Below are positions 1 to 22,972 of a stretch of DNA of 64,000 nucleotides, one piece after another. The number at the start of each line of letters is the position of its first letter. Position 1 is the stretch's first letter. Origin of the DNA: a virus; UHGV virus genome UHGV-1558314, one strand, 5' to 3'. The notes below the pieces were generated by a model, which saw only the letters and a list, made by a program, of their open reading frames with translations, made no database searches and had not been told where the DNA came from. The position numbers were made by a program, and so were the translations under genes.

Positions 1-1457
1 GTTTCTACATCTGCAGACTCTTCGCCGCCAATTGTGACTGTTGAGCCTTGCGGATAGATGAAGTTGCCCTTTGCATCCTGAGGGAATGCAACCTTTGCAC
101 CTGATTCGTCAATGTACATTGGAATGCCGTCTTCCTTGCCAATGACAGGAACTGCGCGATATTCAGCTACAACTGCGCGACTTGTGCAGCGTACTGGTGA
201 ACCATCAGCGCCAATGAAGATGTCGCCAAGTGAAATTGGCAACACTGGTGCAACAAATGAAGTCTTTGAAGCTTCACCTGGCTGCACAAATGGAACCATC
301 ACATTAACAAACTCAGATGACACGAAGTCCTTGAGCTGTTCTTTTGTGATTGCGACATCTGTTGCTGTTGGCGTGCAGTCAATCTTTTCAGGATTGATGT
401 CAGTTGACGGACGAGCCATGCCAAGATATTGATGTGTAGCATCATCAGCAAACAATGGACCCGCAGCTTCATCTACAGAAATGTAGTTCGAACCAAAGAT
501 GTCCACTGCACGTTGGAAACGAGCGTCTTCAATGTCATTTGAATTGTAGAACTCGTCAACCTTGTCAGGGTCAATCTTACACATGATACCTGTCGTGTCT
601 GACACTGCATTCACAGCAGTTTCCAATGACAGTTTGTTGCCATTGATATCAAGCAAGTCAGGAATCAATGAGCCAGATACACGACCCATGTAGCCAGATG
701 CTGCAAGCTTTGACAGTGCCTCAGGACCATACATGCCATCAACTTGTGCACGGATGCCATCCTTTGTGAAGTACTTGCCATATACAGTCGAACCTGCAAG
801 TGATTCATAGTTCGTCAGTTTTTCAGAGAAAAACCAAACATCAACCATATAGTCTGACACAAGGTCATTGCAGTTCACGCCGGGTACATACATTGATGGG
901 AAGCGGTCTTGAACTGACTTGATGTCATAATCATAGCCAGTCAATGTTGTCGGCGTAATGAAGATTGTTGCAGACTTGTTTGTAAGTGTTGAGAAGTTGA
1001 GCAGCTGTACGGGGTCAGCGCCAACAGCATTGAGCAGATTCAATGGCTCAGCTTTCCAGAAGTTTGATGTATCATAGACATCCTTAAATGGAACGTCTAC
1101 AGGTGAGCCATCTTCTCCTGAGCTGTTTGCAGCAAAAGTCACTCGTGACAACACATCGCTATCATTGAATGAGCGCAAGTTCAACACAAGAATTGGGCTT
1201 GTTGCAAGCATTTGCTCTGCAATGAGACCAGCGAAACAGCCGGCACGCTCCAAACGCTTGTCACGTTGACCGAAAATTTCATGCAGCTGGTCTGCATCTT
1301 CAACAAGCACGGCGCGATTGACCGGACCGTTCTTCCACTGGCCTGGCAGCAATCGAAGTGTTTGAGCGGGCAGTGAGTCAAGGTGACTTGCGTCAATGAA
1401 CAGACGATATGTCCCGACTGACTTGAACCGTTCAAATAAAGAAGTGTTATTTGCCAT
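1..1457 (-). CDS. Partial CDS (N-terminal 485 codons; 3' end lies beyond window start); putative major capsid protein by position
   Basis: Hand-translated uninterrupted minus-strand frame from ATG at 1455-1457 to position 1 (MANNTSLFERFKSVGTYRLFIDASHL...); absent from ORF track because no stop in window. Product is positional inference only (downstream of protease/scaffold gene). Confidence 0.5.
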   Translation of the reverse strand, partial: MANNTSLFERFKSVGTYRLFIDASHLDSLPAQTLRLLPGQWKNGPVNRAVLVEDADQLHEIFGQRDKRLERAGCFAGLIAEQMLATSPILVLNLRSFNDSDVLSRVTFAANSSGEDGSPVDVPFKDVYDTSNFWKAEPLNLLNAVGADPVQLLNFSTLTNKSATIFITPTTLTGYDYDIKSVQDRFPSMYVPGVNCNDLVSDYMVDVWFFSEKLTNYESLAGSTVYGKYFTKDGIRAQVDGMYGPEALSKLAASGYMGRVSGSLIPDLLDINGNKLSLETAVNAVSDTTGIMCKIDPDKVDEFYNSNDIEDARFQRAVDIFGSNYISVDEAAGPLFADDATHQYLGMARPSTDINPEKIDCTPTATDVAITKEQLKDFVSSEFVNVMVPFVQPGEASKTSFVAPVLPISLGDIFIGADGSPVRCTSRAVVAEYRAVPVIGKEDGIPMYIDESGAKVAFPQDAKGNFIYPQGSTVTIGGEESADVE

Positions 1458-1555
1458 GTTCGTTATCGTATTTGTAAATTGTGAAATGTTGCTTTGTTTG
1501 ATTATAACTTGATATATGTATGTATATGATGACATCAAACATGTTGTTGACCAAA

Positions 1556-1590
1556 ATCAAAAAGACCAGCTCAATTGAGCTGGTCTTTCA
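1556..1590 (-). terminator. Putative intrinsic terminator after protease/scaffold gene
   Basis: 10-bp perfect stem agaccagctc/gagctggtct with aatt loop (1563-1586), followed on minus strand by T-run (plus-strand caaaaa at 1557-1562). Confidence 0.5.
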
Positions 1591-1611
1591 AATGCTGTTT
1601 AACTATCATCA

Positions 1612-4600
1612 TTAGCCACGAATCAAGTCAACCAAGCGTTGCTGTTCAGGAGTCAATGACGACTTTCCACTGCCATCAACGTTTTCGTTAACGAAACCGA
1701 CTGGCTGCTTAGTCGAATATGACTTGATTGCAGCCCAGTTACGTGAACGATAGAATGCTGCGACATCTGACTCATTTACGAAAGTGCGAACTGCTGCCTG
1801 AGTAGCAATCAATGACTTCTGTTCAGGAGTCAAGCTTTCATAAATGTACTTGTATGCTGTTGGCATGTGCTTCAGATACAATGGCGTATGGTCAATTGGC
1901 TGCAGATTCTCATCCAAGACTGCCACACCTGCAGCATCATAGCGAGTTGCAAGCTGCTTTGTTTGACGACGCAATGCAGCAATTTCATGCTTGATGTTTG
2001 TCAAGCATTCATCTGTTGCTTGCGCGCCAAGATATGTGCGAAGCATATCAGACAGCATCTTCTGATTTGCGTCAGTCAAATCACCTGCGACTTCGATGCC
2101 AGTCAGCTGGTCATCCTTACTGATGACTACAGAAATTGTAGAGCCATCACGCTCAACTGTGCGGAAGTCAAAGTCATCATATGACTTATCCTTAAGAACA
2201 GCTTCACGAATATTGTCATCTACGCCTTCATTGACCATGCTCATGCATTCCTCAACATCTACGTCAAGTCCAAGCTCTTCTGCAGTTTCAGCAATCTTTT
2301 CTGCAAGTTGAGCTTTGTTTTCAACTTTGTCGAGGTCTGCTGCATCTGATACAGCATCGACAAGTTCATCTGCCTGTGCACGAGTAATCGTTGAAGCATC
2401 AACAAGGCCATCAATGATTTGCTCTACATCTGCAGGCGTCGGCTTATTGTCTTCTGTAGCTTCATTGATAAACTTAGCAGTCTTTGGCTTGTAGCTAAGC
2501 TTGCCCTCATTAACCATCTCATCCTGCAATTGTGCAGCGATGTATGCAATCAGCAATGACTTGTTGGCTTCAAGTTCATCGACTGCTTCAGCAGACTTTT
2601 GAGCTTTGATGAGTTCATCGTAAGCTGCTGCAACTTTGTCATCCATCGTAGACTTGTCAGGGTCAATGTTTTTGATGCATGTCTTGACAATGTCATCCTG
2701 ATAGAACTTGTCAATGATTGACTTGTCAGTGTCAGAGTACGTTGCATACAGCTTGTCAGCAACAATTGACTCATTGACAATCTTGCCAGGCTCAGATGCA
2801 GGAACAAGAGTCCACTTACCATCAACTTCTGCAACAATGCCTGATGTCGATTCACCATAAGTGACTGTCAGACGAGTACCAGCTTCATTGTTATCAATTG
2901 TGTTGACGACTGCTTCGAATTCATTGCCATCTGCATCATAGATTTTGATGTTGTCACCGACAGCAGCTTCATCTACTGGTGCTTCGAAGAACTCTTTGAC
3001 AAAGTTCTGAACATCAACGGGCAGACTGTCATATGGCTGTGATGCATAGTACTCTGAGTCAGCGTCAAGGTAGTTCTTTGACAGCAGCCAAGTTTTTCGA
3101 GCAGCAACATCTGCAGCATTCCAAGCATCGACTGACTCATCGCAGTCATCAACAAGTGCAAGATACTCAGGGTCTTTCTTGTCATCAAAACGAAGAGTAA
3201 ACTTTTGCTCGGGCTTGCCAGCAGGCCAAACTTCGACTTCAATTTTTGTAGTGCCTGCAACATTTTTGACTGCGCCTACAACAATCTTGTCGCCTTTGTT
3301 GATGCCATTAGACATGTCGTATGGTGCTTCAATAGATTCATCTGTCGACTGTGCTCGAATTGCAGCTGCAATAGCGTTACGAGATTCATTGTCAAACATC
3401 TCCCATGTAGCATTTGCAGCATCTTCTACGCCAATCTTGTCTTTGCCAATCTGCTCAATTAACTGATTGCGGTCAGCTACTGAAGCATTGTACCACCAGT
3501 CTGCTGCAGGGTCAGAAGCTTCATCAAGCGCTTTGACAGTTTCATATCGACCGTCATACAGCATGTACTTATCACCTTCTTTGATGGCTACAGACTCCTT
3601 GCCATTGTACTTGAATGACACTTTGTCTTCATTGAAGCCAGTCAATTCAGCTGTGATTTTGTCACCGTTCTTGTCATAAACTTCGACAGTTTGTGCTTCA
3701 TCAATGTTCAAGTGCTTCTTGAGTGCATCTACAAGTTCTTTGCCAAGTGCATCTTCATTGTCATGAGCATGTTGGAAGCAATCTTCATCTGACTTATCAG
3801 GCTGAACAGCTTTCAATGCTGTGGCACGATTGAGCATTGACATTGTGCCCCAGATTGATACGAAGCTTTTGCCCTCATTGTCTTGTGCTTTGGCTTCGTC
3901 AATTGCATCAATGTCTTTCTCAAGCATTGCATGATGAGCAATGTCGATGCCAGCCCATTTCGTCTTTGCATTATATGGCAAACCAATATGCTTCGACAAA
4001 ATTGACTGACGCTGGTCATCTGTGAATGAATCCCAAGCTTCGCCAAGTGTTGCATGCTTTGCTTCATCAGCAGCAAATTCAGCTTCAATCTTGAGTTTGT
4101 GGTCCTTGTCAATCAGTTGCCACTTGGCATTTGGACGATAAAACTCAGACAATGACAGCTTGTCAAGAATGACTTTGCGTTCGTCATCTGACAATTCGTC
4201 CCACTTGTTGTCAGCAGATTCATCGATGTTGACGAGTTCTTTCTCAATGAGATTCTTGTCAAGCATTGCATCAATGATTGGCTGCTGGGCTTCTGCTGGA
4301 ATGTCTTTGAACGACTTAATTGCAATGACAGCGTCTTTGTCATCAACTTTAGCAGCTTCAACAATTTCTGTCTTCACTTCATCAGTCAAAGCGCCCCAAG
4401 CAGCATCGAGATAATCAAAGTTGAGAGCTTCATCACATTCAACAATGCCATACTGCTTTGCAATGTCATTGTGCTTGTCAAGATTGCTGTCGAGTTCAGC
4501 TTCAATTGCTGCTTTGATGTCATCAATTGACTTATCTTCAACTTCAAACTCAAGAGCTTTTGCAAATTCAGTCAATGCTGCATCATCAAGCTTGCTAATG

Positions 4601-5562
4601 TCATAAGGCTTAGCATCTTCATTTGTGAAGTCAATGCCAAGCAAAGACATTGCTTGTTTTTTGTTTTCTTCTGAGAGTGCATCGAATGCAGTTGCAAGAC
4701 CGACATCGGTATAGTCACACCCAACTTCGTCAAGCAATGCTTCGACTTTCTGGATGTTTTCTACACCAACTTCATTAGCATCAGCATTGTTGTATGCCTC
4801 AATAAAACGTGATTGGTTTGTCATGGTAGTGAAATCTTCTATTGATTCGTTTATGAGTTGCTGTTTGAGTGCATCCAATGATGCTGAGCCAATCAATGCA
4901 TCAGGGAATAGCTTCTGCAACATGCCTGTACGTGCAAGCTCAATCAATTGGAGCATCAATGAGTTTGGCGAGTCTTCGTCATCTACAGATTCACAAATGA
5001 GAGTGTCTTTTGATTCATTAACTGAACCGACAAGATTGAACTCTGCTTCAGGAAATGACGGCTCGCATACTAAATCGTATGTAATCAACTTTAGTAGAGT
5101 CGTTGCACCTGTAGTAGGATTAACTATACCAAGAGCTCGACTTGATACAAACAATGGTGAGCCTGCAGCCACAACTGCCCATGCAATACGACCTGCTGGC
5201 GTATCAAGAATAGTAATCCAGCCTTCAAATCGTTGCTTATCAGGATTCCATTCAATACTGTCAATGCGGTGTGATACATTCCCATACTTCACAGTACGTC
5301 GCTTAACATGCTCAAGCTCGCCAAATAGACGCTTAGCTTTGATTGCTGATTGCAATGTTTGTACTTGCGCAAAATAATTTTCGAAATTGTATGTTCGACC
5401 ATTACGATTACGCTCGCCAATAGTTGCATATGTACCGAACAATCTACCAAGCGCGCCACTTGGCACATGTTCATCTACAGCTTCAGCAACAAATTGACAA
5501 TCCTGGCGGCTTTCTATAATAAGCTGCGCAGGCTTGCCTTTGTATGTTATTGGTTTTGCCAT
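1612..5562 (-). CDS. Prohead protease (T4 gp21-like N-terminal domain) fused to long acidic coiled-coil scaffold-like region, 1316 aa
   Basis: N-terminal ~170 aa carry motifs matching recalled T4 gp21 (NRNGRTY, GELEHV vs GELNHP, FVSSRALG vs GVSSRGLG); remainder is strongly acidic (D/E-rich) and low complexity. ATG start, TAA stop verified. Confidence 0.6.
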   Translation of the reverse strand: MAKPITYKGKPAQLIIESRQDCQFVAEAVDEHVPSGALGRLFGTYATIGERNRNGRTYNFENYFAQVQTLQSAIKAKRLFGELEHVKRRTVKYGNVSHRIDSIEWNPDKQRFEGWITILDTPAGRIAWAVVAAGSPLFVSSRALGIVNPTTGATTLLKLITYDLVCEPSFPEAEFNLVGSVNESKDTLICESVDDEDSPNSLMLQLIELARTGMLQKLFPDALIGSASLDALKQQLINESIEDFTTMTNQSRFIEAYNNADANEVGVENIQKVEALLDEVGCDYTDVGLATAFDALSEENKKQAMSLLGIDFTNEDAKPYDISKLDDAALTEFAKALEFEVEDKSIDDIKAAIEAELDSNLDKHNDIAKQYGIVECDEALNFDYLDAAWGALTDEVKTEIVEAAKVDDKDAVIAIKSFKDIPAEAQQPIIDAMLDKNLIEKELVNIDESADNKWDELSDDERKVILDKLSLSEFYRPNAKWQLIDKDHKLKIEAEFAADEAKHATLGEAWDSFTDDQRQSILSKHIGLPYNAKTKWAGIDIAHHAMLEKDIDAIDEAKAQDNEGKSFVSIWGTMSMLNRATALKAVQPDKSDEDCFQHAHDNEDALGKELVDALKKHLNIDEAQTVEVYDKNGDKITAELTGFNEDKVSFKYNGKESVAIKEGDKYMLYDGRYETVKALDEASDPAADWWYNASVADRNQLIEQIGKDKIGVEDAANATWEMFDNESRNAIAAAIRAQSTDESIEAPYDMSNGINKGDKIVVGAVKNVAGTTKIEVEVWPAGKPEQKFTLRFDDKKDPEYLALVDDCDESVDAWNAADVAARKTWLLSKNYLDADSEYYASQPYDSLPVDVQNFVKEFFEAPVDEAAVGDNIKIYDADGNEFEAVVNTIDNNEAGTRLTVTYGESTSGIVAEVDGKWTLVPASEPGKIVNESIVADKLYATYSDTDKSIIDKFYQDDIVKTCIKNIDPDKSTMDDKVAAAYDELIKAQKSAEAVDELEANKSLLIAYIAAQLQDEMVNEGKLSYKPKTAKFINEATEDNKPTPADVEQIIDGLVDASTITRAQADELVDAVSDAADLDKVENKAQLAEKIAETAEELGLDVDVEECMSMVNEGVDDNIREAVLKDKSYDDFDFRTVERDGSTISVVISKDDQLTGIEVAGDLTDANQKMLSDMLRTYLGAQATDECLTNIKHEIAALRRQTKQLATRYDAAGVAVLDENLQPIDHTPLYLKHMPTAYKYIYESLTPEQKSLIATQAAVRTFVNESDVAAFYRSRNWAAIKSYSTKQPVGFVNENVDGSGKSSLTPEQQRLVDLIRG

Positions 5563-5663
5563 ATTGTTAAATGTGTTATTTGAAAGTTTGCAACATTTTT
5601 GTTGTTATTGATTATATATGCAAGGCAGACTTGTGTGTTGAAAAATTGCAAATTTTCAGTAAT

Positions 5664-5690
5664 TTGTACATACATAAAATACAAAACCAT
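5664..5690 (+). promoter_or_regulatory. Candidate promoter for plus-strand RuvC-like gene containing TTGTACA box
   Basis: aatttgtacatacataaaatac lies ~40 nt upstream of ATG 5708; same TTGTACA core as the recurrent minus-strand box. Confidence 0.3.
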
Positions 5691-5707
5691 CCAAATCAAT
5701 TCATTGT

Positions 5708-6376
5708 ATGTCAACAAACAATCATGGCAAGCTCAGATTACTTGAGCTCAAAGAAGCACAGCCATATGATACACTCAAAATTGGCATCGACGTATCAGTA
5801 GATGCTACTGGCATGTGCATGATATTTGGCAAGACTGTCGCATTGTTCAAATTTACACCACATTTGCCGCCAGAAGATGACAGTTCAGATGATGTGAACT
5901 TTGTGCAGTTCAACAAAATCTATCTGCAAACATCATCTTCTGCAAGAGAACGCTCAAAAATGCATACTCGACATACGCTTGCAAATAAGATTGTTGATGC
6001 TATTGACATGTTCATGCAGGAAATCTGGCCGAACAGTCCAGCAAACATTCAAATTGTCACAGAAGGGTCTGCATATGGCTATGCTGCGCATAACTCTAAC
6101 AGCTTAGTTGAACTTGCTGAATTTAGAAGCGTGATTTTAGAAAGAGTCTATCATCGTTGGCCTCTTGGTACACATCTAAGTCTTGATGTCATTGCGCCAA
6201 AATCATTGAAGAAACACGCGACTGGTGATGGCAAAGCAGACAAACTAAAGATGATTGAAGCTGCAATCGCTAAGTTGACACGCATTCATTGGGCAGGCAA
6301 AATTGACGATGAATGTGACGCATTGCATCTTTGTATGTATGAGCCATTAAGCAATCCTGAACCACGACTTTGGTGA
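5708..6376 (+). CDS. RuvC-like Holliday junction resolvase
   Basis: RuvC-type motifs: KIGIDVSVDATG, VTEGSAYG, ADKLKMIEAAIAKL, DDECDALHLCMY. One of only two clear plus-strand genes. Confidence 0.7.
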   Translation: MSTNNHGKLRLLELKEAQPYDTLKIGIDVSVDATGMCMIFGKTVALFKFTPHLPPEDDSSDDVNFVQFNKIYLQTSSSARERSKMHTRHTLANKIVDAIDMFMQEIWPNSPANIQIVTEGSAYGYAAHNSNSLVELAEFRSVILERVYHRWPLGTHLSLDVIAPKSLKKHATGDGKADKLKMIEAAIAKLTRIHWAGKIDDECDALHLCMYEPLSNPEPRLW

Positions 6377-6497
6377 CATTACATCATACAACATAAGTTT
6401 CATTTCAAAAACTCAATTCATATGCAAATCCCTCGTAACTGGGGGAGGGGCACAACAAGCCCTCCAAAGCAAGTCAAAGATTCTTGCAAAAGTTGAC

Positions 6498-6773
6498 GTG
6501 TATTTAATGCCAAGCGCAAACATTGACACGCTTATCAAACAAGGCTTTAAGTACATTGTGTATCGCAACACTAATACAATGTCAGCGTATCAATACACGA
6601 ATAGAATGTTTGCTGATTCGTCAACAATGGCAATGCTAACATTGACAGACGTTGAAATTGGCGACATGCATTCGTTTGGCTTGCATAACACAACAAATAA
6701 TACAACAAAGCCTATGCAAATGCGTCAAGTAACAATTACACCAACCTCCACTGTTGTAACTGTGCAATGGTGA
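6498..6773 (+). CDS. Hypothetical protein (91 aa)
   Basis: ORF between RuvC-like gene and bidirectional hairpin at 6801-6827; no recognisable motifs. Confidence 0.25.
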   Translation: MYLMPSANIDTLIKQGFKYIVYRNTNTMSAYQYTNRMFADSSTMAMLTLTDVEIGDMHSFGLHNTTNNTTKPMQMRQVTITPTSTVVTVQW

Positions 6774-6794
6774 GCGCTCATTAGCATATGCATC

Positions 6795-6830
6795 AAAAAA
6801 ACTCCGACAGAATTGTTCTGTCGGAGTTTG
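6795..6830. terminator. Putative bidirectional intrinsic terminator
   Basis: Stem actccgacag/ctgtcggagt with aattgtt loop, flanked by A6 upstream and T-rich downstream on plus strand. Confidence 0.5.
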
Positions 6831-7111
6831 CTGTTGTTATAAACAGTTATCTTAACAACACTGTTATCTCAAAATGTTTTGCAATCTACTGCATGATTCA
6901 ATTTTGTGTGGCACTGTCATCAGATGTTGCAAAGTCAACTTCACCAGTAGACTTTACTGCAGACTTAAATGCATTCAAGCCGCATGTAACAATGCAGATA
7001 ACTACAATTTTTAATGCCAAACAGCTTATAAACTGTTACGACACCATTGTCAATCTTGCGGTTATACGTAATTATTTTCTTAAAAAGTGCATGCTTCGTT
7101 TTCATATGTCA

Positions 7112-8908
7112 TTAGCTTTGTGATGTTTTGGCAGGTTCATCATCAATAGGCTCATCATCAACTGACTCATCATCACCTGTATCAATGCCAGAAGCCGCAG
7201 CAAGTGAAACATCATTAGCGACGCCTTGCTGTTCAAGTTGTTGTTGAGCTTGTTTTGTTTGAATTGCGACAAGTCTTGCAGCTTCCATTGCAAGCTTAAG
7301 ATTCTCTTGAAGTTCGATATCAAGCTGTTCAGCATTAGCTTGCATGTCTTCTTTGCTTAAGCCAAGGTACTTGTTGATAAGCCAATTGCTCGAGAAGAAC
7401 GGGCGTTCAGTGTCAGACATGTTAAGTGAACGAACAAGTGAACTGCGAATATCTTCGATTGTATGTATACGCTTCTGAAGCAATGTGAGCTCCATTTGCG
7501 TTTGGAAGTGATTGTATCGATTGAACTTAAGTTTTAGTGCATTCAACACATCATTGTCACCAATGTAGTTATTGTTTTTGATGCACATCAAAACATACAC
7601 AGGCTTCAATATGATTGCAACGCCAAATCTACGCATCAAAGCTGAAATGAAGATAGCAAAGCGCCGCTCATCACGTTGAATTGACTCTTCAGAAACATTC
7701 CACATGCCACCGCCGTCATCGAATCTGCTTAGAGGCAGCTTTGACAAGCGTTGCAAGTTATTGCGGAAATATGTGACTGCTGAAGTGTCAGATAAGTCAG
7801 GCATGCCTGTGCCAATTGTTTGAATGTTGGGTTTGCCTGCATTAGTATCAGCCAGCCAAAATTCGCTATTGAAGGGCACAGATGCTTCACCGTTAACTTG
7901 GAGTTCGCCGGTTTGATTGTCGAATTCAATTTTTTCGTGGTACTTATTCATTGCTTTACGCAATGTTTCCTGTGCAGCAGCTTTCAGTTTACCGCCAGTA
8001 GGAATTGTGATAAGTGAACGAAAACGAGCAGCTGTCGTAGCATATGCAATGCGGCTTCGCTCCAAAATTCTAAGTAAGTTAAACGCACGAACAAGACGCT
8101 CAAAGTATGACATAGACCCAACCATGTCATCATTCCACTGCAAATATGCTACTTGCGAATCAAGCAAGTTGATTTTTTCTGAATTATTAGACACAAATGC
8201 TGGTGCTTTAACATCAAACATTGTATGTGTCTTAAACATATCTTGTTGAGACTTATCATACTGCCAGAAGAACATGTCGCCCTTCTTCATAGGTGTCAAT
8301 GCAAACGCGTTCAACTTTCTGATGCCAACAACATCAGTTGGCTCATCTGCATTATCAAACACAATCTCATAGCCAAGTCTACCTCGTACAAGATATTCAC
8401 GCAACAATGCTTTGACATCTTGTTTACGAGGTTCTGAGTTCAACCCATTGAATGCATACATCAAATAGACTTGCTTGAATGCATCCATAAAGTCATCTTT
8501 GATTGTCTGCTTTGTTGCGTCATCTATCTCAAGTTTATCGATGTCGCAAAAATCAGGCTCGCAAAAGAAATTGCTATCAGAATTGAACACGATGCACTCA
8601 TCAATCATGCGGTCAAGAATGTCATCGAGTTCCGGTTCTGCACTTAAGATGTCATATTTTTTGGCTCGAAGATAACTTGTCAATCCAAAAAGATTCTTTT
8701 TAGGTGACTCTTTCTGATTGAACACGTCATCAGTAGACAACACAACAACTTCTTGGTCATTGATGTTATGCTCACCTGTATATGCTGCTTTCTCCAAATC
8801 TGCATCAGACCCAGACTTGTGCACGTTCAATTGCTGCAATGGGCTGTCTTTTGGAATTGAGCGCAATGCATCAGTCCCCAGATATGTTCGTTTGGTCTTT
8901 TTAGCCAT
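7112..8908 (-). CDS. Putative portal protein (598 aa), positional assignment
   Basis: Large ORF upstream of protease/scaffold gene in transcription order; acidic C-terminus (DTGDDESVDDEPIDDEP). No motif-level confirmation. Confidence 0.35.
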   Translation of the reverse strand: MAKKTKRTYLGTDALRSIPKDSPLQQLNVHKSGSDADLEKAAYTGEHNINDQEVVVLSTDDVFNQKESPKKNLFGLTSYLRAKKYDILSAEPELDDILDRMIDECIVFNSDSNFFCEPDFCDIDKLEIDDATKQTIKDDFMDAFKQVYLMYAFNGLNSEPRKQDVKALLREYLVRGRLGYEIVFDNADEPTDVVGIRKLNAFALTPMKKGDMFFWQYDKSQQDMFKTHTMFDVKAPAFVSNNSEKINLLDSQVAYLQWNDDMVGSMSYFERLVRAFNLLRILERSRIAYATTAARFRSLITIPTGGKLKAAAQETLRKAMNKYHEKIEFDNQTGELQVNGEASVPFNSEFWLADTNAGKPNIQTIGTGMPDLSDTSAVTYFRNNLQRLSKLPLSRFDDGGGMWNVSEESIQRDERRFAIFISALMRRFGVAIILKPVYVLMCIKNNNYIGDNDVLNALKLKFNRYNHFQTQMELTLLQKRIHTIEDIRSSLVRSLNMSDTERPFFSSNWLINKYLGLSKEDMQANAEQLDIELQENLKLAMEAARLVAIQTKQAQQQLEQQGVANDVSLAAASGIDTGDDESVDDEPIDDEPAKTSQS

Positions 8909-9053
8909 TTTTGTATTGCTTTGAATATCTATACACGTCTTGTCAATTTGACATGACCGCAGTCATCTGCAATTATTTAGTAGTGTGTATATGCGTAATT
9001 TGCGTTGCAATTTGTAGTCAAATCACGAACTTCATATGTTGTAGCAGACTCAT

Positions 9054-10172
9054 TCATAGTAATGATGCTTGTAAAATGTCTATAATGTGCTCATCAGTTT
9101 CACATAAATCTGTATCACTTATTATGCAATATGCAGACAATTCAGTAGATGCATTAACATATGCAGTCATTGCAGCAGCTTTTGCTATGACTATATCATC
9201 ATGCAGCCATTTAGCAGGCTTTATTTCAACAACAATTTGCGCGTTATTAAAATGCACAACAAAATCCGCGATATATACATGTGTAGCACTATTGAACACA
9301 TACTTACACCTTGCAGTTTCTATTGAATAGTGTAACTTATTGCGTTCACAAAAGTGTATAAATTTGCGTTCATTGTTTGAACGAAACGACGCTTTAGCTG
9401 ATAAACAGTATTTTGCAGTTTGAACATAGCCTCTCATGCAGTTCATAAATGGCTGCAATGACATTATGTCTCGACCATTTAACAATGCTCTATGCTGTGC
9501 TTCTGCACGTCTACGTTTAACTTCTGGTTTAGCATCTGTAATTTTGCGAGTAGCACGTATACGTTCTTTAACACCAGGTCGAGCCATGATTGCTTTTGCA
9601 GAAGCACTTCGATGCGCATGTGTTTCAGGCCTTGCGTTAGCAATTAGCATCCCATGCAATTGAGTGTCTTTAACTTCTTGACGCTGCATTGCTATTCGAG
9701 TGCTCTGTGAAATCTTTTGCCTAACTGCAGGATTTGACATTGCACGTTTTGCGCGTTCTGACGCCTTTACACGTAGTTCTGTATTATTTGCATACATGGC
9801 ACGTTGAGTATTACTAATTTTGGTGCCAATGCGTTGTTTATATTCTGCATCTGCAAAGTATTTTGCATTTCTGCATGCATGACTGCAAACATCGCCGTCA
9901 CCATAGCCACGTGTTACACACCACCATGTTAATTGCTTGCCACATATAGAACATGTTGGGATATCTGAGTCATCTTTAATTTCACATAGATATTTGTCAT
10001 ACCATTGCTTCAATGAATAGCCTACAATAGGTTCAGCCTTTCTACTAAAATACGTGCTAAATATCCATGTATCAAGTTCAGGCACGTATAACTGAAACTT
10101 TGTACGTGTTATTTGCTTAACAAATTTGTCCCAATTCTTAGCGGCATTGCGCTTAGCGTCTTCAGCAGTCAT
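9054..10172 (-). CDS. Homing-endonuclease-like protein with basic repeats and C-terminal PD-(D/E)XK-like nuclease motif
   Basis: C-terminal IADFVVHFNNAQIVVEIKP fits D...E-x-K; central lysine/arginine-rich repeat region; CxxC...CxxxC cluster near N-terminus. Confidence 0.45.
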   Translation of the reverse strand: MTAEDAKRNAAKNWDKFVKQITRTKFQLYVPELDTWIFSTYFSRKAEPIVGYSLKQWYDKYLCEIKDDSDIPTCSICGKQLTWWCVTRGYGDGDVCSHACRNAKYFADAEYKQRIGTKISNTQRAMYANNTELRVKASERAKRAMSNPAVRQKISQSTRIAMQRQEVKDTQLHGMLIANARPETHAHRSASAKAIMARPGVKERIRATRKITDAKPEVKRRRAEAQHRALLNGRDIMSLQPFMNCMRGYVQTAKYCLSAKASFRSNNERKFIHFCERNKLHYSIETARCKYVFNSATHVYIADFVVHFNNAQIVVEIKPAKWLHDDIVIAKAAAMTAYVNASTELSAYCIISDTDLCETDEHIIDILQASLL

Positions 10173-10179
10173 TAGAGCA

Positions 10180-10926
10180 TCAAATCATTCTGTTATCACT
10201 AACTGCAAAGTTGATATTGTTGTCTTTCAGATATTGCATGTACATTGCAAATACTTGTTCTGCTGTCATTTTGTTGTACTTTGATGATGGTATGAAAATT
10301 GCTTTCGACCAGTTCTCATAAGTTATTTCAATCAAACCTGTAATGCGTTCTGGAATGTATTCACGAAATGCAAACGCGCCGCCATATGGCTGTACAATTG
10401 GCGCGATTTTGTGCCAATCAACAAACACAGGTGTTTGTTCTGTTCTATAAAGCTCGCCTTTATATTTTGATGCAAATGCTCTAAAAATTGCTTCTGCAAT
10501 CACAAAGCGAACTTCAAGTGGCACAAAGTGTAAGCTTAAGCCAACAGAACGCCATTCACCAGATTGTGTGTAAAAGCCGCCCATACAAAAACATAGGGGC
10601 GTTTCGTCCCACACTGCAAGCCAATCTTTTGTTTTAGGGTCACTGTATACAAACATATACAGCTTCCCAGGCTCCATGTACTTTCTGCGAATCTGCACAT
10701 CAGGATTCGTAGCATATGATTTGAACCATGCAGCAGCTTCTCTACCACCGTTTGGCATTTTGTACCACGGATTGCTTCGAATTTCTTTGCCAAGGTCATA
10801 TTGACCAGACTTTACCAAACGATTGAATAATCGTTGTGCTGCAGTCAATATTGAACGTCCTACTGACTTCGCTTTGTCAATAAAAGACGTTTTTGCTTGT
10901 GTATCTAATGAATTAAACTTTGCCAT
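10180..10926 (-). CDS. Hypothetical protein (248 aa)
   Basis: Intact ORF with ATG start; no recognisable motifs. Confidence 0.4.
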   Translation of the reverse strand: MAKFNSLDTQAKTSFIDKAKSVGRSILTAAQRLFNRLVKSGQYDLGKEIRSNPWYKMPNGGREAAAWFKSYATNPDVQIRRKYMEPGKLYMFVYSDPKTKDWLAVWDETPLCFCMGGFYTQSGEWRSVGLSLHFVPLEVRFVIAEAIFRAFASKYKGELYRTEQTPVFVDWHKIAPIVQPYGGAFAFREYIPERITGLIEITYENWSKAIFIPSSKYNKMTAEQVFAMYMQYLKDNNINFAVSDNRMI

Positions 10927-11073
10927 ATCATCATCGTTTCGGCTTTGTGACTACGTGCCAAGCATTGCATTCTTGACACCACACAGCTCTCTTTGTTTGT
11001 TTAGCATTTAGCACTGCTTGCTTAGCTACTTCTGCATTTGCAGCAATCTTATCATAGCATTTCTTTGTGCAAC

Positions 11074-11514
11074 TCATTTGAAGAATCGTTCAGTTATGAT
11101 TTTGAACTTAACATTTTGTTGTTTGCAATATGCAATTGCGGCATTCCACTTTGCGACATTTTTGCAATATGTTTCTTTCGCATAATTTGACGCAGACCGA
11201 CTTGGGCATTGCGTTTCATGCCATGGTTTCACCTCAACGACATATGTAGAATCTGCGGTTTTGAACAAAAAGTCGGGCCAATATGTGTGCGTTACGCCAT
11301 CAAGCTCATATGCAATTGGCAGTGTCTCAGATGACCAAGCAAGAACCTTTGAACTCATATCGCAAAGCTTGCAAAATCTGAATTCAAGTGAACTGCGGTA
11401 TATGATTGTCTTGTCTGTCGCGTCTTTGCCTTTGTACTTATCTGGGTTCATGCATCTGTAGTAGCCTTGCTTGTAGGGCCCTGATTTGTTTGGCTTAAGT
11501 TGCTTAATGTTCAT
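11074..11514 (-). CDS. Small PD-(D/E)XK-like nuclease family protein
   Basis: WPDFLFKTADSTYVVEVKP resembles the nuclease motif of 9054..10172; ATG at 11512-11514 chosen over GTG at 11523. Confidence 0.4.
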   Translation of the reverse strand: MNIKQLKPNKSGPYKQGYYRCMNPDKYKGKDATDKTIIYRSSLEFRFCKLCDMSSKVLAWSSETLPIAYELDGVTHTYWPDFLFKTADSTYVVEVKPWHETQCPSRSASNYAKETYCKNVAKWNAAIAYCKQQNVKFKIITERFFK

Positions 11515-11519
11515 TGCAG

Positions 11520-11765
11520 TCACTCATTGTCAGGTTTGACGTCTTTGCAGCCAAACTTATGCACAGCGTATTCAAGACCAAGTTGTTGCAATTCTGCAAA
11601 TGTCTTATCTTGCACATATTCTTTTGGAAATCTGCCATGCCATTTACCTATCATAGGCGCACATTCTGAACACATTCGAGGCATATTCTGTAAACGTGCA
11701 GACCAATAATAGCCAAGCGCAGTGTTTTCAATTGCGCCACACTTTTCACATACAAATAAAGGCAT
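11520..11765 (-). CDS. Zinc-ribbon protein (about 81 aa)
   Basis: CEKCG...CSEC Cys pairs; start set to internal ATG at 11763-11765 to avoid 65-nt overlap with upstream gene. Confidence 0.35.
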   Translation of the reverse strand: MPLFVCEKCGAIENTALGYYWSARLQNMPRMCSECAPMIGKWHGRFPKEYVQDKTFAELQQLGLEYAVHKFGCKDVKPDNE

Positions 11766-11769
11766 AATA

Positions 11770-13149
11770 TTAGCTATTAACTTCCCACATATTGTCAATA
11801 TCAAGTACAGGCCACATTCTACGTTGAAGCTCAACTGTTTGTGACAGTTTGCCTGACTTTGTGTAGTTCCATTTCAATGCAGTGCTTATGTATTTGCCGC
11901 TCAATCGCAAATTCTTTGCATTTTGAGATACACTTGGCTGTCGCTTTGGCGAATCTGTAGCCTTTTCATCAGGTTTTGTTGGCTCTTCAAGCTTGTTCTT
12001 GATTGACCATATCTCAACGTTTAGTGTTTTGAATGCATATAGCTGGTTCAGTGTTCGTTGTAATGTGCATGACAAAATTACTCTATCAAGCATGCCTTGA
12101 GACCAATCATACATTGCAGCAGCTTCATAAAAATGCTCATGCACATTTGAGTGGTCTGGGTCTCGTTTAGCAAGTTGAATTGCAGTTTGCTCTGTATAAT
12201 CTGCAAAAGTGTCCCAAATCTTATCTGTAGATTCTTGTTTGATGACAGGCTGAGACGTCTGCACATTTATGCTTTGTTCACCCAAATTATGCTGCATTGA
12301 CACAACATTGACTGCCGATGGCCTACGCATAGACGCTGAATTGTATGTCATGCCATATTTTGTGAATCTTGACATCCAATTTTCACCATTGACATTGTTA
12401 TTCAAGATGAGCTTTTGCGGCTTTGGCAATTCTTTGCCATCAATGTTGTCAATTGTTATTGTGTCATCAAGCGGAGTCTCTTCCATTTCTGCAAACACAT
12501 CAACAATCGTCAAACGATACCAAGGGTCAATGAATGCTTTGACAACTTTGTTTTTGCCAAGCCACATATGTCGTAATACATGACGCCTAATGAAGCTTAG
12601 ATATGTTTCATTGCATTGCAGCCATGTCATTTTGTCATCTGTGCCATCGATATTTGTGACAAGGCCAAGACCTGTATCTTCGCAAATCTTCTTGATGACA
12701 TCAATGCTTGTCATGTCATCAAATGATTGAACCATTGTTTGCTTCAATGCATCATCAACAAACAAATGCGCAGAAATTCGAATGTTGCCATTGTCTTGTT
12801 CTGCATTATCAATCAAAAAGTCAGCTTTGATGACCTTGAATTCTGTGTCAGCAGTATTGCCAATGTAAAGTGTTGCAATGTCGTGTACAAGTGGAAAGTC
12901 ATTGAACATAAAGTTTGCATTGTCATTAAATGACAACTCAAATTGTGGCAAAAAGTCCTTGCCATATGACAGCTCAAAGTACTGAATTGACCCAAAGGGC
13001 ACATTCGTGTTGCACACATACACAAGTGGCACAAGTTTACCTGCAGACTTCAGCACAGATTTTGTCGAGTCTTCATTGACAGGGTCATAATTGACCATTA
13101 TGTCTCGCACTTCATCAATCAAAGTGCCCTTCAGAACTTCTTTGAGCAT
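11770..13149 (-). CDS. Hypothetical protein (459 aa)
   Basis: Long intact ORF, ATG start, TAA stop; no recognisable motifs. Confidence 0.45.
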   Translation of the reverse strand: MLKEVLKGTLIDEVRDIMVNYDPVNEDSTKSVLKSAGKLVPLVYVCNTNVPFGSIQYFELSYGKDFLPQFELSFNDNANFMFNDFPLVHDIATLYIGNTADTEFKVIKADFLIDNAEQDNGNIRISAHLFVDDALKQTMVQSFDDMTSIDVIKKICEDTGLGLVTNIDGTDDKMTWLQCNETYLSFIRRHVLRHMWLGKNKVVKAFIDPWYRLTIVDVFAEMEETPLDDTITIDNIDGKELPKPQKLILNNNVNGENWMSRFTKYGMTYNSASMRRPSAVNVVSMQHNLGEQSINVQTSQPVIKQESTDKIWDTFADYTEQTAIQLAKRDPDHSNVHEHFYEAAAMYDWSQGMLDRVILSCTLQRTLNQLYAFKTLNVEIWSIKNKLEEPTKPDEKATDSPKRQPSVSQNAKNLRLSGKYISTALKWNYTKSGKLSQTVELQRRMWPVLDIDNMWEVNS

Positions 13150-21697: not shown

Positions 21698-22072
21698 TCA
21701 TCGATTGTCGCCTGACCCATGCAGTACGCCTCGTAATTTTCGAGACTGTAGTTTCTGAATGTTAAGCTGACAAATGTCAGTTAAGCTGTAGCCCAAATCA
21801 TGTGCAAGAGTTGCAGCATACCACATGACATCGCTAAGCTCTTTTGCGATTTCCTTGCGAATGTCTTCATTGTCAAAATCACCATTCTTGTCTCGAATGA
21901 CTTTTTTGACTTTGTCTGCAACTTCGCCTGCTTCACCCGTCAAGCCAAGCGTTGGATAGACAATTGCAGCTGATTTAGGATACACTGCGCTATCAAGTGC
22001 AGCAGTCTGATATTCATCAATGGTTGAAATACAAGTGTGGTCAATTACACCATGTTCATCTCGTTTAAGCAT
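21698..22072 (-). CDS. MazG-like nucleoside triphosphate pyrophosphohydrolase
   Basis: All-alpha NTP-PPase signature (LTGEAGEVADKVKK ... ELSDVMWYAATLAHDLG). Confidence 0.55.
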   Translation of the reverse strand: MLKRDEHGVIDHTCISTIDEYQTAALDSAVYPKSAAIVYPTLGLTGEAGEVADKVKKVIRDKNGDFDNEDIRKEIAKELSDVMWYAATLAHDLGYSLTDICQLNIQKLQSRKLRGVLHGSGDNR

Positions 22073-22073
22073 A

Positions 22074-22565: not shown

Positions 22566-22588
22566 ATTAAGTATGTGTTTGTATGTTG

Positions 22589-22933: not shown

Positions 22934-22949
22934 ATTCAATTATTGTTAT

Positions 22950-22972
22950 TATATGTTGATATTGTACAACAT
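22950..22972 (-). promoter_or_regulatory. Recurrent promoter box (coding-strand ATGTTGTACAATATCAACATATAAT)
   Basis: Plus-strand tatatgttgatattgtacaacat; TATAAT-like element ~10 nt downstream of the box on the minus strand. Confidence 0.45.

What the first reader, a model, noticed from the sequence alone, without database searches (positions are those of the whole stretch)
1612..5562. Prohead protease fused to a 1,100-aa acidic scaffold-like region
The first ~170 residues carry gp21-type protease motifs; the remaining ~1,100 residues are strongly acidic, repetitive and coiled-coil-like. Protease and scaffold are usually separate and the scaffold is small. A capsid-internal protein of this size could act as a length ruler or an ejected cargo protein.
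Basis: partly seen in the sequence, partly recalled or inferred. Interest (0 to 1): 0.6.

Follow-up and report, generated by a model that had tools for sequence, protein, structure and literature searches.

The report
Capsid protease fused to self-cutting polyprotein
A large phage makes its T4-type capsid-maturation protease as the head of a 1,316-residue chain of about 17 small acidic domains. Every joint between domains carries what looks like the protease's own cutting site, and close relatives swap whole domains in and out at those joints.

Summary
The ORF is real: window 1612-5562, minus strand, 1,316 aa.

- **Protease.** Residues 1-183 are a T4 gp21-type prohead serine protease (PHROG E 7e-34; AlphaFold model matches PDB 5JBL, TM 0.76-0.79; His85/Ser140/Asp163 invariant).
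- **Tail.** The remaining ~1,130 residues are strongly acidic (net -115). They are not a coiled coil. They form ~17 small folded modules on flexible linkers.
- **Junction motif.** Eighteen junctions carry hydrophobic-(N/D)-E|(S/A/G/N). A strict form occurs 12 times against 0.8 expected (z=13). Seventeen of 18 sites lie in disordered linkers.
- **Why it looks like a cleavage site.**
  - It follows the rule that T4-type and giant-phage prohead proteases cut after Glu.
  - It aligns with an ITE|S motif in the T4 gp21 tail.
  - It occurs twice in the N-terminal propeptide region of this phage's major capsid protein.
- **Cassettes.** Among 25 relatives (62-100% identical), all nine indel sites sit at junction motifs.
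- **Position.** In relatives the gene lies directly between portal and capsid genes, where T4 has gp21 plus gp22.

Best reading: a protease-led, self-processing prohead-core polyprotein. Cleavage itself is inferred, not shown. It is a new variant of known protease-scaffold fusions such as P2 gpO.

The parts
1612..5562 (-). Whole ORF: 1,316 aa, 145.9 kDa, protease-led polyprotein (stop codon 1612-1614)
   Evidence: The identical protein P0001 occurs on 175-kb contigs.
5512..5562 (-). Putative N-terminal propeptide, aa 1-17, ending LIIE17|S18
   Evidence: It lines up by position with T4 gp21 LLIE9|T10, where nine N-terminal residues are self-cleaved (PMC9958956). Most distant homologues conserve the site, but P0033 and P0062 have D or Q in place of E. 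Inferred.
5014..5511 (-). T4 gp21-type (S77) prohead serine protease domain, aa 18-183. His85 at 5308-5310, Ser140 at 5143-5145, Asp163 at 5074-5076.
   Evidence: phrog_207 E 7e-34; Pfam PF03420 at 26.9 bits against a cut-off of 27. BLASTP to T4 gp21 aligns GELEH, VSSRxLG and the Asp. H85, S140, S141, R142 and D163 are invariant in 20 diverse homologues. The AF2 model matches 5JBL at E 3e-9, TM 0.76-0.79.
5011..5022 (-). First junction, VNE183|S184: the predicted self-release site of the protease
   Evidence: N182-E183-S184 is invariant even in homologues only 30% identical. It lies in the disordered stretch aa 169-198. It aligns with T4 gp21 KEITE|S.
4219..5013 (-). Conserved N-proximal modules: aa 184-239 (6.1 kDa), 240-378 (15.4 kDa), 379-448 (7.7 kDa). 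Junction motifs at 4843-4854, 4426-4437 and 4216-4227.
   Evidence: Module families N, B and A. B and A occur in all or nearly all of the 70 homologues; N occurs in 39. Helical bundles with pLDDT 74-90.
2770..4218 (-). Variable cassette array, aa 449-931. Eight modules of 52-67 aa: five helical modules carrying a W..l.D..R motif, or a looser form of it, and three small beta-barrels. Junction motifs at 4060-4071, 3892-3903, 3694-3705, 3517-3528, 3334-3345, 3133-3144, 2965-2976 and 2767-2778.
   Evidence: Seven of the nine indel sites among 25 relatives fall in this region, all at junction motifs. The other two are at ref 315 and 377. Module sizes are; structure is.
1909..2769 (-). Conserved C-terminal core, aa 932-1218: modules of 88, 15, 78 and 106 aa. 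Junction motifs at 2503-2514, 2458-2469, 2224-2235 and 1906-1917.
   Evidence: Module families D, E and F are present in all 70 homologues; the 15-aa W peptide is separately delimited in 25. The junction Glu is invariant at most of these sites across 42 sequences, and nearly invariant at 1218. phmmer of aa 932-1316 against 1.8 billion representatives finds only 6 clusters below 1e-30.
1615..1908 (-). C-terminal 'anchor', aa 1219-1316, near neutral. Core pattern MP..Y..i.ESLT.eQk..i..QA..R.FVNE|S....F..R.NW. Junction motifs at 1768-1779 and 1681-1692.
   Evidence: The profile of aa 1219-1264 hits Tenacibaculum phage pT24 gp140 (E 1.8e-11) and P0071 (E 8e-7). The same pattern is visible in MA9V-2 gp209, P0072, P0080 and huge phages LR756500 and LR756501. 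The capsid-binding role is inferred.
1559..1588 (-). Intrinsic-terminator-like hairpin directly after the ORF: AAAGACCAGCTCAATTGAGCTGGTCTTTTT
   Evidence: Read directly from the sequence.
7112..8908 (-). Context: T4-like portal gene upstream
   Evidence: Pfam Portal_T4 E 1.9e-59; phrog_213.
3..1457 (-). Context: 5' part of the tail sheath gene, cut by the window edge. The major capsid gene lies beyond the window, at L004:19785-21500.
   Evidence: phrog_34521 tail sheath E 1e-48. The MCP matches phrog_138 at E 2e-15 and carries two junction motifs, at aa 19 and 45.

Best explanation
The gene encodes a T4 gp21-type prohead serine protease fused in frame to a polyprotein that forms the prohead core.

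**Architecture**
- Protease (aa 18-183).
- About 17 small acidic folded modules on flexible linkers.
- A conserved C-terminal anchor (aa ~1219-1316).

**Proposed mechanism**
1. The intact 146-kDa chain co-assembles with portal and major capsid protein. It is targeted by its conserved C-terminal part and fills the prohead as the scaffold or core.
2. Once the shell is complete, the protease activates. This probably involves cutting at LIIE17|S18, as T4 gp21 does at LLIE9|T10.
3. The protease releases itself at the invariant VNE183|S184.
4. It cuts every hydrophobic-(N/D)-E|(S/A/G/N) junction, and the two such sites in the capsid protein's N-terminal propeptide.
5. The chain falls into ~19 fragments of 1.7-18.5 kDa. 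These either leave the shell or stay as internal proteins, making room for DNA.
6. Because each module is flanked by cutting sites, modules can be inserted, duplicated or lost as cassettes without disturbing assembly. This explains the variable middle.

**Shown:** ORF integrity, protease fold and catalytic residues, motif enrichment, motif location in linkers, indels in register with the motif, motifs in capsid-protein N-termini, and gene position.

**Inferred:** that cleavage happens, what the anchor binds, and the fate of the fragments.
For: **Protease**
- phrog_207 E 7e-34.
- Alignment to T4 gp21 with the catalytic His, Ser and Asp matched.
- These residues are invariant in 20 homologues down to 30% identity.
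- The AF2 model's only significant PDB hit is T4 gp21 5JBL: E 3e-9, prob 1.0, TM 0.76-0.79.

**Junction motif**
- [LIVMFC][ND]E[SA] occurs 12 times against 0.8 +/- 0.9 in 2,000 shuffles, z=13.
- A wider form reaches 10.6 per 1,000 aa here against 0.70 in the window's other minus-strand ORFs.
- Over 142 sites, P3 is V/I/L in 68% and P1' is S, A or G.
- The P1 Glu is invariant or nearly so at 10 junctions across 42 sequences.
- 17 of 18 sites lie in pLDDT<50 linkers that cover 31% of the chain. None of 100,000 random placements matches this.

**Cleavage identity**
- T4, phiKZ and SPN3US proteases all cut after Glu in a 3-residue motif, and they auto-process their own ends (PMC5694885, PMC9958956).
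- The first junction aligns with T4 gp21 ITE|S.
- This phage's MCP has VLDE|S at aa 19 and MNE|S at aa 45. Eleven other neighbours have none.
- Divergent relatives keep the same two MCP positions.
- MA9V-2 and PAU MCPs carry the motif near the N-terminus. PAU proteins gp142 and gp154, annotated 'internal capsid protein', and the neighbouring gp153 carry KLNE|A at aa 12.

**Cassettes**
- All 9 indel sites in 25 relatives fall at junction motifs.
- Splitting 70 homologues at the motif yields coherent module families with a conserved frame and a variable middle.

**Scaffold slot**
- In L007 the order is portal, this gene, MCP, with nothing between. L009 is the same except for one 177-aa ORF.
- No recognisable scaffold was found in the 24 kb examined around the gene.
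Against: - No proteomic or biochemical data exist for this phage or any fused homologue, so cleavage is inferred from sequence only.
- The Pfam S77 score (26.9 bits) is just under the gathering cut-off of 27.
- The tail shows no detectable homology to the T4 scaffold gp22 (hhalign probability 1.4%). It has no significant fold match in PDB or BFVD either.
- The linker test is not fully independent of the indel test, because gaps in the alignment can lower pLDDT. Even so, 6 of the 7 sites in the indel-free C-terminal third lie in linkers.
- A 1:1 ratio of protease to scaffold differs from T4, which has ~55-100 gp21 to ~580 gp22 copies. It would need explaining, for example by a nested internal start, for which I found no evidence.
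- The tail sheath carries two motif copies by chance, so the motif alone does not prove cleavage.
Confidence: 0.65

Rival explanations
1. Cargo-delivery reading. The conserved ends do the assembly work. The variable middle modules are internal proteins that stay in the filled head and are ejected with the DNA, like T4 IPI/II/III, for example as anti-defence effectors. The polyprotein is a way to package them in fixed amounts.
For: - The predicted products are folded 6-8 kDa domains, not short peptides. Junction sites here are ~63 aa apart, against 16 [LI]xE sites in the 269 aa of T4 gp22.
- Cassette content differs between relatives that are 95-98% identical elsewhere. That is the pattern expected of genes under an arms race.
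- Relatives carry a second multi-junction protein without a protease domain.
Against: - Modules are acidic (pI 4.1-5.4). From my own knowledge, T4 internal proteins are basic.
- No module matches any known anti-defence or enzymatic family.
- The variable region finds no stand-alone homologues in 5.8 billion proteins.
- Retention and ejection cannot be tested with these tools.
Confidence: 0.2
2. Plain long scaffold or size ruler. The tail is only a space-filling or size-determining scaffold, and its length sets capsid dimensions. The junction sites merely allow its removal.
For: - Acidic composition and position between portal and MCP, as for classical scaffolds.
- Fused homologues in huge phages have repetitive helical middles: LR756501 has a 14-aa repeat.
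Against: - Length varies from 1,316 to 1,563 aa among relatives whose longest contigs all stay at 175-181 kb.
- The chain is small globular modules on disordered linkers, not a rigid rod.
- Modules are gained and lost between near-identical phages.
Confidence: 0.1
3. The motif is not a cleavage site. The protein remains intact, or is cut only once after the protease, and forms a permanent inner-capsid structure. The (N/D)E(S/A) motif would be a linker or helix-capping signature, or a footprint of recombination.
For: - No direct evidence of cleavage exists.
- The motif also occurs inside one helix (DNES at aa 725-728) and twice in the tail sheath.
Against: - Codons at the 18 junctions differ, and the shared DNA is at most ~8 nt. 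That is too short to be a recombination site, so selection acts on the protein.
- The same motif sits at conserved N-terminal positions of MCPs in four lineages, where a linker role makes no sense.
- Its form matches the Glu-P1 rule of the protease family to which the N-terminal domain belongs (PMC5694885).
Confidence: 0.08

Closest known systems
Phage T4 prohead core: protease gp21 (MEROPS S77, PDB 5JBL) plus separate scaffold gp22, core proteins gp67 and gp68, and internal proteins IPI-III
   Same: - Protease fold and catalytic His/Ser/Asp.
- Cleavage after Glu in a hydrophobic-x-E motif with small P1'. T4 gp23 is cut at LTE65|A (PMC9958956).
- Self-processing of the protease.
- An MCP N-terminal propeptide carrying sites.
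- Gene position next to portal and MCP.
- An acidic core that is dismantled.
   Different: - In T4 these are six or more separate genes. Here they are one 1,316-aa chain.
- The motif is narrower: P2 is restricted to N or D.
- Products are folded 6-15 kDa domains rather than short peptides.
- The tail shows no detectable homology to gp22.
Protease-scaffold fusion proteins: phage P2 gpO (PMC7552001); from my own knowledge also lambda gpC/Nu3 and herpesvirus UL26/UL26.5
   Same: An N-terminal maturation protease and a C-terminal scaffold or capsid-binding part on one polypeptide, which cleaves itself and the capsid protein.
   Different: - gpO is 284 aa with one scaffold domain. This protein is 1,316 aa with ~17 modules and 18 junction sites.
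- It belongs to a different protease family by sequence: only S77 and S80 hits.
- Cassette turnover has not been described for gpO.
- No nested scaffold-only product was detected here.
Giant-phage proteases phiKZ gp175 and SPN3US gp245 (MEROPS S80) and their multiply cleaved head and ejection proteins (PMC5694885, PMC10052503)
   Same: - A gp21-related protease.
- A Glu-P1 motif (A/S/G-x-E).
- C-terminal autocleavage, with a C-terminal region thought to target the enzyme into the prohead.
- Substrates with several sites.
   Different: - Those proteases are ~260 aa and their substrates are separate genes.
- Their motif has a small residue at P3, whereas here P3 is hydrophobic and P2 is N or D.
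Unstudied homologues: Chryseobacterium phage MA9V-2 gp209 (1,207 aa, 'prohead core protein serine protease'), Tenacibaculum phage pT24 gp140 (527 aa, 'prohead core scaffold'), and huge phages LR756500 and LR756501 (632 and 807 aa)
   Same: - A tripartite plan: S77 protease, variable middle, then the conserved C-terminal anchor.
- Motif copies: 20 in MA9V-2, 8 in pT24, 5 and 7 in the huge phages.
   Different: - Middles are unrelated in sequence. LR756501 has a 14-aa helical repeat instead of globular modules.
- None has been analysed. The MA9V-2 paper does not mention the protein.
Polyproteins of RNA viruses and retroviruses with an embedded protease (analogy only, from my own knowledge)
   Same: One translation product carries its own protease, with recognition sites at every domain boundary.
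   Different: Unrelated proteases and unrelated biology. Here the products are capsid-internal assembly or cargo modules of a dsDNA tailed phage.

Membership tests
T4 gp21-type prohead protease (MEROPS S77 / Pfam PF03420 / phrog_207) | Significant match to the family sequence profiles | tested here: met
   phrog_207 E 7.1e-34 over aa 10-243. Pfam PF03420 gives E 3.9e-6 at 26.9 bits, just under the 27-bit gathering score. The family-derived profile hits PAU gp151, annotated 'capsid maturation protease', at E 6e-31.
T4 gp21-type prohead protease (MEROPS S77 / Pfam PF03420 / phrog_207) | gp21 / herpesvirus-protease fold | tested here: met
   AF2 model of aa 1-250 (core pLDDT 75-93) against PDB. 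The only significant hits are the three chains of 5JBL (T4 gp21): E 3e-9 to 7e-9, prob 1.00, TM 0.75-0.79, rmsd 3.2-3.4 A over 166-169 columns.
T4 gp21-type prohead protease (MEROPS S77 / Pfam PF03420 / phrog_207) | Catalytic His-Ser-Asp triad | tested here: met
   GELEH85, VSS140-141R and TYD163 align with T4 GELNH, VSSRGLG and GVDAV. H85, S140, S141, R142 and D163 are invariant in 20 homologues down to 30% identity. The identity of the catalytic residues follows the triad given for gp21-type enzymes in PMC5694885.
T4 gp21-type prohead protease (MEROPS S77 / Pfam PF03420 / phrog_207) | Proteolytic activity, cutting after Glu in a short motif | not testable with these tools
   Only indirect evidence: enrichment and placement of hydrophobic-(N/D)-E|(S/A/G) motifs.
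T4 gp21-type prohead protease (MEROPS S77 / Pfam PF03420 / phrog_207) | Encoded in the head module next to portal and major capsid genes | tested here: met
   The portal gene is 1.5 kb upstream in the window. The MCP gene is 5.8 kb downstream in L004 and directly adjacent in L007.
Protease-scaffold fusion proteins (P2 gpO type) | N-terminal protease and C-terminal scaffolding part on one polypeptide | tested here: inconclusive
   The architecture and gene position fit, and no separate scaffold gene was seen in 24 kb. Scaffolding function itself cannot be tested.
Protease-scaffold fusion proteins (P2 gpO type) | Sequence homology to gpO, lambda C or the herpes protease-scaffold families | tested here: not met
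   The Pfam scan returns only S77 and, weakly, S80. It is therefore a functional analogue, not a member.
T4 gp22 major scaffold protein | Homology to gp22 | tested here: not met
   hhalign of the aa 932-1112 family profile against T4 gp22 gives probability 1.4%. A marginal hmmsearch hit (E 0.0015 in one of about 130 searches) is not significant.
T4-type internal proteins (IPs) with a capsid-targeting sequence | Small protein released inside the head by a gp21-type cut, retained and ejected | not testable with these tools
   Module sizes (6-15 kDa) and flanking motifs fit. Charge is acidic rather than basic. No homology to any PHROG or Pfam family was found.

The most novel reading that the evidence does not exclude
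The junction-delimited middle of the protein may be a natural plug-in system for packaging proteins into capsids. Any small domain inserted between two hydrophobic-(N/D)-E|S junctions would ride into the prohead on the protease-scaffold chain. It would then be freed by the chain's own protease, stay in the head and be injected with the DNA. The rapid cassette turnover among near-identical phages would reflect an arms race, with the modules acting as early anti-defence or host-takeover effectors.
Probability: 0.2. Interest if true: 0.8.

Novelty: new variant of a known kind. Interest (0 to 1): 0.58.

Why it matters
- Tailed phages normally encode the head protease, scaffold and internal proteins as separate genes. 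Polyprotein strategies are associated with RNA viruses.
- A dsDNA phage lineage appears to chain about 17 capsid-internal domains behind the protease that would release them, and to exchange those domains as cassettes. This would be a distinct solution to stoichiometric core assembly.
- It gives a sequence-readable map of a prohead protease's specificity.
- It suggests a ready-made design for loading foreign proteins into capsids, as is done artificially with the T4 capsid-targeting sequence.
- The simpler protease-middle-anchor plan also occurs in the largest phage genomes checked here (462 and 735 kb), where head assembly is essentially unstudied.
- The idea is directly testable in a cultured relative, Chryseobacterium phage MA9V-2.

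Tried and rejected
- **Nucleotide search.** Megablast of window 1-12000 against 50,697 phage records found no match.
- **PDB by sequence.** phmmer of the protease domain found nothing at E<=1. The link to 5JBL came only from the fold search.
- **Fold search of the tail.** Foldseek of the 1,136-aa tail model against PDB and BFVD gave nothing significant. There were only small local hits to SH3/Sm-like barrels and to two unnamed 65- and 88-aa viral proteins.
- **Scaffold homology.** The tail shows no homology to T4 gp22.
- **Reach of the C-terminal region.** phmmer of aa 932-1316 against 1.8 billion representatives found only this narrow family.
- **Stand-alone modules.** A search with the variable region aa 449-931 found no free-standing module genes. 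Module profiles against small proteins of the PAU head cluster gave only weak hits (PAU gp149 at E 4e-5 to a cassette of P0042). This is a lead, not a finding.
- **Nested scaffold-only product.** Met247 is nearly invariant. However, this phage uses no Shine-Dalgarno sites, and no Bacteroidota-type promoter motif lies upstream. The question is unresolved.
- **Apparent unfused protease.** P0085 (192 aa, 76% identical) is a 1-nt frameshift in a metagenome contig. The reading frame continues in the +2 frame.
- **N-glycosylation sequon (N-x-S/T).** Rejected, because half the sites are DE(A/S) or NE(A/G).
- **Recombination-site explanation.** Rejected, because codons differ at each junction.
- **Second protease-domain search.** A repeat search with the protease domain alone listed only short gp21-like proteins. 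It said nothing about how common long fusions are.

Full report
**1. The observation**

A single ORF occupies window 1612..5562 on the minus strand: ATG start, 1,316 aa, 145.9 kDa. An identical protein (P0001) is recorded on contigs of up to ~175 kb. Sixty-nine further full-length homologues of 1,316-1,661 aa come from independent assemblies. The long ORF is therefore not a sequencing artefact.

Residues 1-180 are near neutral. Residues 181-1316 have 20.6% D+E, net charge -115 and pI 4.3. The last ~115 residues are again neutral. The region contains no DNA tandem repeats.

**2. The N-terminal domain is a gp21-type prohead protease**

- PHROG phrog_207 ('head maturation protease') matches aa 10-243 at E 7e-34. 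Pfam Peptidase_S77 matches aa 52-173 at 26.9 bits, just below its 27-bit cut-off.
- BLASTP against T4 gp21 aligns GELEH85 with GELNH, VSS140-141RALG with VSSRGLG, and TYD163LV with GVDAV.
- H85, S140, S141, R142 and D163 are invariant across 20 homologues down to 30% identity.
- An AlphaFold2 model of aa 1-250 has a core pLDDT of 75-93. Its only significant PDB matches are the three chains of 5JBL, the T4 gp21 structure: E 3e-9, probability 1.00, TM 0.76-0.79.
- A sequence-only search of the PDB found nothing.

**3. The tail is beads on a string, not a coiled coil**

The AlphaFold2 model of aa 181-1316 used 42 aligned homologues and reached mean pLDDT 60.6 and pTM 0.26. It shows compact elements with pLDDT mostly 65-90, separated by segments below 50.

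- Composition is 51% helix and 10% strand.
- No single helix exceeds 26 residues. The longest helical stretch is two consecutive helices in aa ~1164-1207.
- There are three small beta-barrels (aa ~625-668, ~760-792, ~871-919) and one alpha/beta module (aa ~1131-1207).
- Modules are only weakly related to one another. The best pair is aa 449-500 against 501-556, E 6e-7. A strict search finds a W..l.D..R motif in four modules (aa 389, 454, 510, 720), and looser forms occur in three more.

**4. A junction motif**

Reading the homologues showed that modules end in hydrophobic-(N/D)-E followed by S, A, G or N. The query has 18 such sites, at aa 181, 237, 376, 446, 498, 554, 620, 679, 740, 807, 863, 929, 1017, 1032, 1110, 1216, 1262 and 1291.

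- **Enrichment.** The strict form [LIVMFC][ND]E[SA] occurs 12 times against 0.8 +/- 0.9 in 2,000 composition-preserving shuffles, z=13.
- **Density.** The form [LIVMFC][ND]E[SAG] reaches 10.6 per 1,000 aa here, against 0.70 in the other minus-strand ORFs of the window.
- **Logo.** Over 142 sites in seven representative homologues, P3 is V/I/L in 68%, P2 is N or D about equally, and P1' is S (80), A (47) or G (15).
- **Conservation.** The P1 Glu is invariant or nearly so at ten junctions across 42 sequences with mean column identity 36%. N182-E183-S184 is invariant even in homologues only 30% identical.
- **Location.** 17 of 18 scissile positions lie in pLDDT<50 segments that cover 31% of the model. 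None of 100,000 random placements reaches this.
- **Caveat.** Alignment gaps can lower pLDDT. Even so, 6 of the 7 sites in the indel-free C-terminal third lie in such segments.

**5. Why the motif is probably the protease's own cleavage site**

- T4 gp21 and the giant-phage proteases all cut after Glu in a three-residue motif. They also process their own termini (PMC5694885; PMC9958956).
- T4's own sites have a hydrophobic P3 and a small P1'. Examples are gp23 LTE65|A, gp21 LLIE9|T and many xES sites in gp22.
- The first junction (VNE183|S) aligns with KEITE|S in the T4 gp21 tail. It lies in a disordered stretch, aa 169-198.
- The N-terminus has LIIE17|S, matching by position the site where T4 gp21 removes nine residues to activate (PMC9958956).
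- The major capsid protein provides an independent check. It lies outside the window at L004:19785-21500 (571 aa, phrog_138 E 2e-15). It carries exactly two motif copies, VLDE|S at aa 19 and MNE|S at aa 45, in its N-terminal propeptide region. Eleven neighbouring proteins have none and the 945-aa sheath has two.
- Divergent relatives keep both MCP positions, with substitutions inside the motif class: VIDE|A and INE|G in L007, VIDE|S and INE|G in L009.
- MA9V-2 MCP has FINE|A at aa 22 and FLNE|S at aa 60. PAU MCP has KLNE|S at aa 21. PAU gp142 and gp154, annotated 'internal capsid protein', and the neighbouring gp153 all begin ...LYExKLNE|A at aa 12.
- Codons differ at each junction. The conservation is therefore in the protein, not a DNA recombination site.

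**6. Cassette behaviour**

I aligned the 25 closest homologues (62-100% identical over their best local alignment, 1,316-1,661 aa). Every one of the nine internal indel sites falls at a junction motif, at reference positions 315, 377, 449, 559, 625, 680, 740, 808 and 863. In other words, whole modules are present or absent.

I then cut all 70 homologues at the motif and clustered the 1,623 pieces by BLASTP with at least 60% mutual coverage. This gave coherent families:

- A conserved frame: the protease, then B, A ... D, E, F, I, G, H. N and the short W peptide are found only in part of the family.
- A variable middle containing duplications of resident module types as well as unrelated modules.

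**7. Genomic context**

- In the window, the minus-strand order is: gp2-like DNA end protector (10180-10926), an endonuclease-domain ORF (9054-10172), the T4-like portal (7112-8908), this gene, a strong terminator hairpin (~1559-1588), then the tail sheath.
- A plus-strand RuvC-like ORF and small ORFs lie between the portal and this gene.
- In relatives L007 and L009 the order is portal, this gene, MCP, with nothing between (L007) or one 177-aa ORF between (L009). This is the position of gp21 plus gp22 in T4.
- No recognisable separate scaffold gene was found in the 24 kb examined.
- None of 41 gene starts has a Shine-Dalgarno sequence. The nearest cultured relatives, about 30% identical in portal and protease, infect Chryseobacterium, Tenacibaculum and Sphingobacterium (PMC3738902). 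The host is therefore probably a member of Bacteroidota.

**8. Wider distribution**

- Chryseobacterium phage MA9V-2 encodes a 1,207-aa 'prohead core protein serine protease' between portal and MCP, with 20 motif copies.
- Tenacibaculum phage pT24 has a 527-aa version with 8 copies.
- Uncultured huge phages LR756500 (462 kb) and LR756501 (735 kb) have 632- and 807-aa versions with 5 and 7 copies.
- All share the protease and a C-terminal ~60-residue pattern: MP..Y..i.ESLt.eqk..i..qA..r.F.NE|S....F..R.NW.
- Their middles are unrelated to this one. LR756501 has a 14-aa helical repeat.
- Phage PAU has the unfused state: a 246-aa protease, a separate gene annotated as scaffolding, and small internal capsid proteins.
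- The fusion of protease, middle and anchor is thus old in this clade. The lineage in the window expanded the middle into a junction-delimited module array.
- The MA9V-2 paper does not discuss the protein. Literature searches found no description of such a polyprotein.

**9. Proposed mechanism**

The intact chain is targeted to the assembling prohead by its conserved C-terminal part. This follows the analogy of the scaffold C-terminal domain of P2 gpO (PMC7552001) and the prohead-targeting C-termini of giant-phage proteases (PMC5694885). There it forms the acidic core.

On activation the protease trims its N-terminus and releases itself at E183. It then cuts all junctions and the MCP propeptide. 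The result is ~19 fragments of 1.7-18.5 kDa.

- **Shown:** everything in sections 1-8.
- **Inferred:** that cleavage occurs, what the anchor binds, and whether the fragments leave or stay.

**10. Rivals**

- **Ejected cargo.** The variable modules could be ejected cargo. Their folded IP-sized products and fast cassette turnover support this. Their acidity and the lack of any family match argue against it.
- **Ruler.** A ruler is unlikely. Length varies by 19% among relatives whose contigs all stay at 175-181 kb, and the chain is flexible.
- **Non-cleavage motif.** This reading is contradicted by the MCP N-terminal sites.

**11. Comparison and novelty**

- By sequence, fold and catalytic residues, the N-terminal domain is a member of the gp21/S77 protease family.
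- The whole protein works like the known protease-scaffold fusions (P2 gpO; from my own knowledge also lambda C/Nu3 and herpes UL26). It is not homologous to them or to T4 gp22.
- What I did not find described elsewhere is the combination of three things: the size, ~18 junction sites delimiting folded modules, and cassette exchange at those junctions.
- I rate it a new variant of a known kind. It is of moderate-to-good interest and is directly testable in MA9V-2.

Noticed in passing
window 19370-20662 (-) and 24184-25725 (-): The family-B DNA polymerase appears split into two ORFs. ORF 24184-25725 matches phrog_262 positions 111-490, and ORF 19370-20662 matches positions 505-842. They are ~3.5 kb apart with three ORFs between them.
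   Followed up: no
L007:18648-20498 and L009:18053-20080 (relatives; not in the window): Relatives carry a second multi-junction protein without a protease domain: 616 aa with 7 motif copies and 675 aa with 6 copies (Pfam DUF5856). It starts MKKRK...LVLE|S and contains the same W..D.ER helical modules. It may be a second cleavable core or internal-protein chain.
   Followed up: partly
window 5708-6376 (+), 6498-7123 (+), 9054-10172 (-); L004:18407-19696, 21846-22868, 22895-23951: The head module of this lineage carries extra genes that relatives L007 and L009 lack. These are a plus-strand RuvC-like ORF and small ORFs between portal and protease, and a 372-aa ORF with a TnsA/endonuclease I-like domain. 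Three ORFs around the MCP gene, which by eye share conserved sequence blocks, also resemble endonuclease genes. They look like mobile or homing-type insertions.
   Followed up: partly
window, upstream of all 41 minus-strand gene starts examined: No Shine-Dalgarno sequences occur. Leaders are A/T-rich. This fits a Bacteroidota host, as do the nearest cultured relatives.
   Followed up: partly
window ~46388-46410 and ~53340-53362 (-): An identical 21-nt leader, ATAATCTAAATCTCATTTAGA, sits immediately upstream of the ATG of the helicase-like gene (44510-46387) and of the 1,308-aa SbcC/metallophosphoesterase-like gene (49413-53339). It may be a shared promoter or regulatory element.
   Followed up: no
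window ~1559-1588 (-): A perfect 11-bp stem hairpin followed by a T-run, AAAGACCAGCTCAATTGAGCTGGTCTTTTT, lies 24 nt after the stop codon. It separates the polyprotein gene from the tail sheath gene.
   Followed up: no
L012 (LR756501, 735-kb uncultured phage) 6986-9409: The largest phage genome in the collection encodes an 807-aa protease fusion with the same C-terminal anchor. Its middle is a roughly 14-residue repeat, YxEYIAExxDxxIx, repeated about 15 times, which is a more classical coiled-coil-like scaffold.
   Followed up: partly
L010:8001-8872 (metagenome contig of a close relative): An apparent stand-alone 192-aa protease (P0085) results from a 1-nt frameshift just after the first junction. 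The polyprotein continues in the +2 frame. It is most likely an assembly error.
   Followed up: yes
window 4822-4824 (-), codon Met247: A nearly invariant Met sits at the start of the first large conserved module, after a poorly conserved disordered stretch. It could mark a nested scaffold-only start, as in lambda Nu3 or herpes UL26.5. No supporting signal was found.
   Followed up: partly
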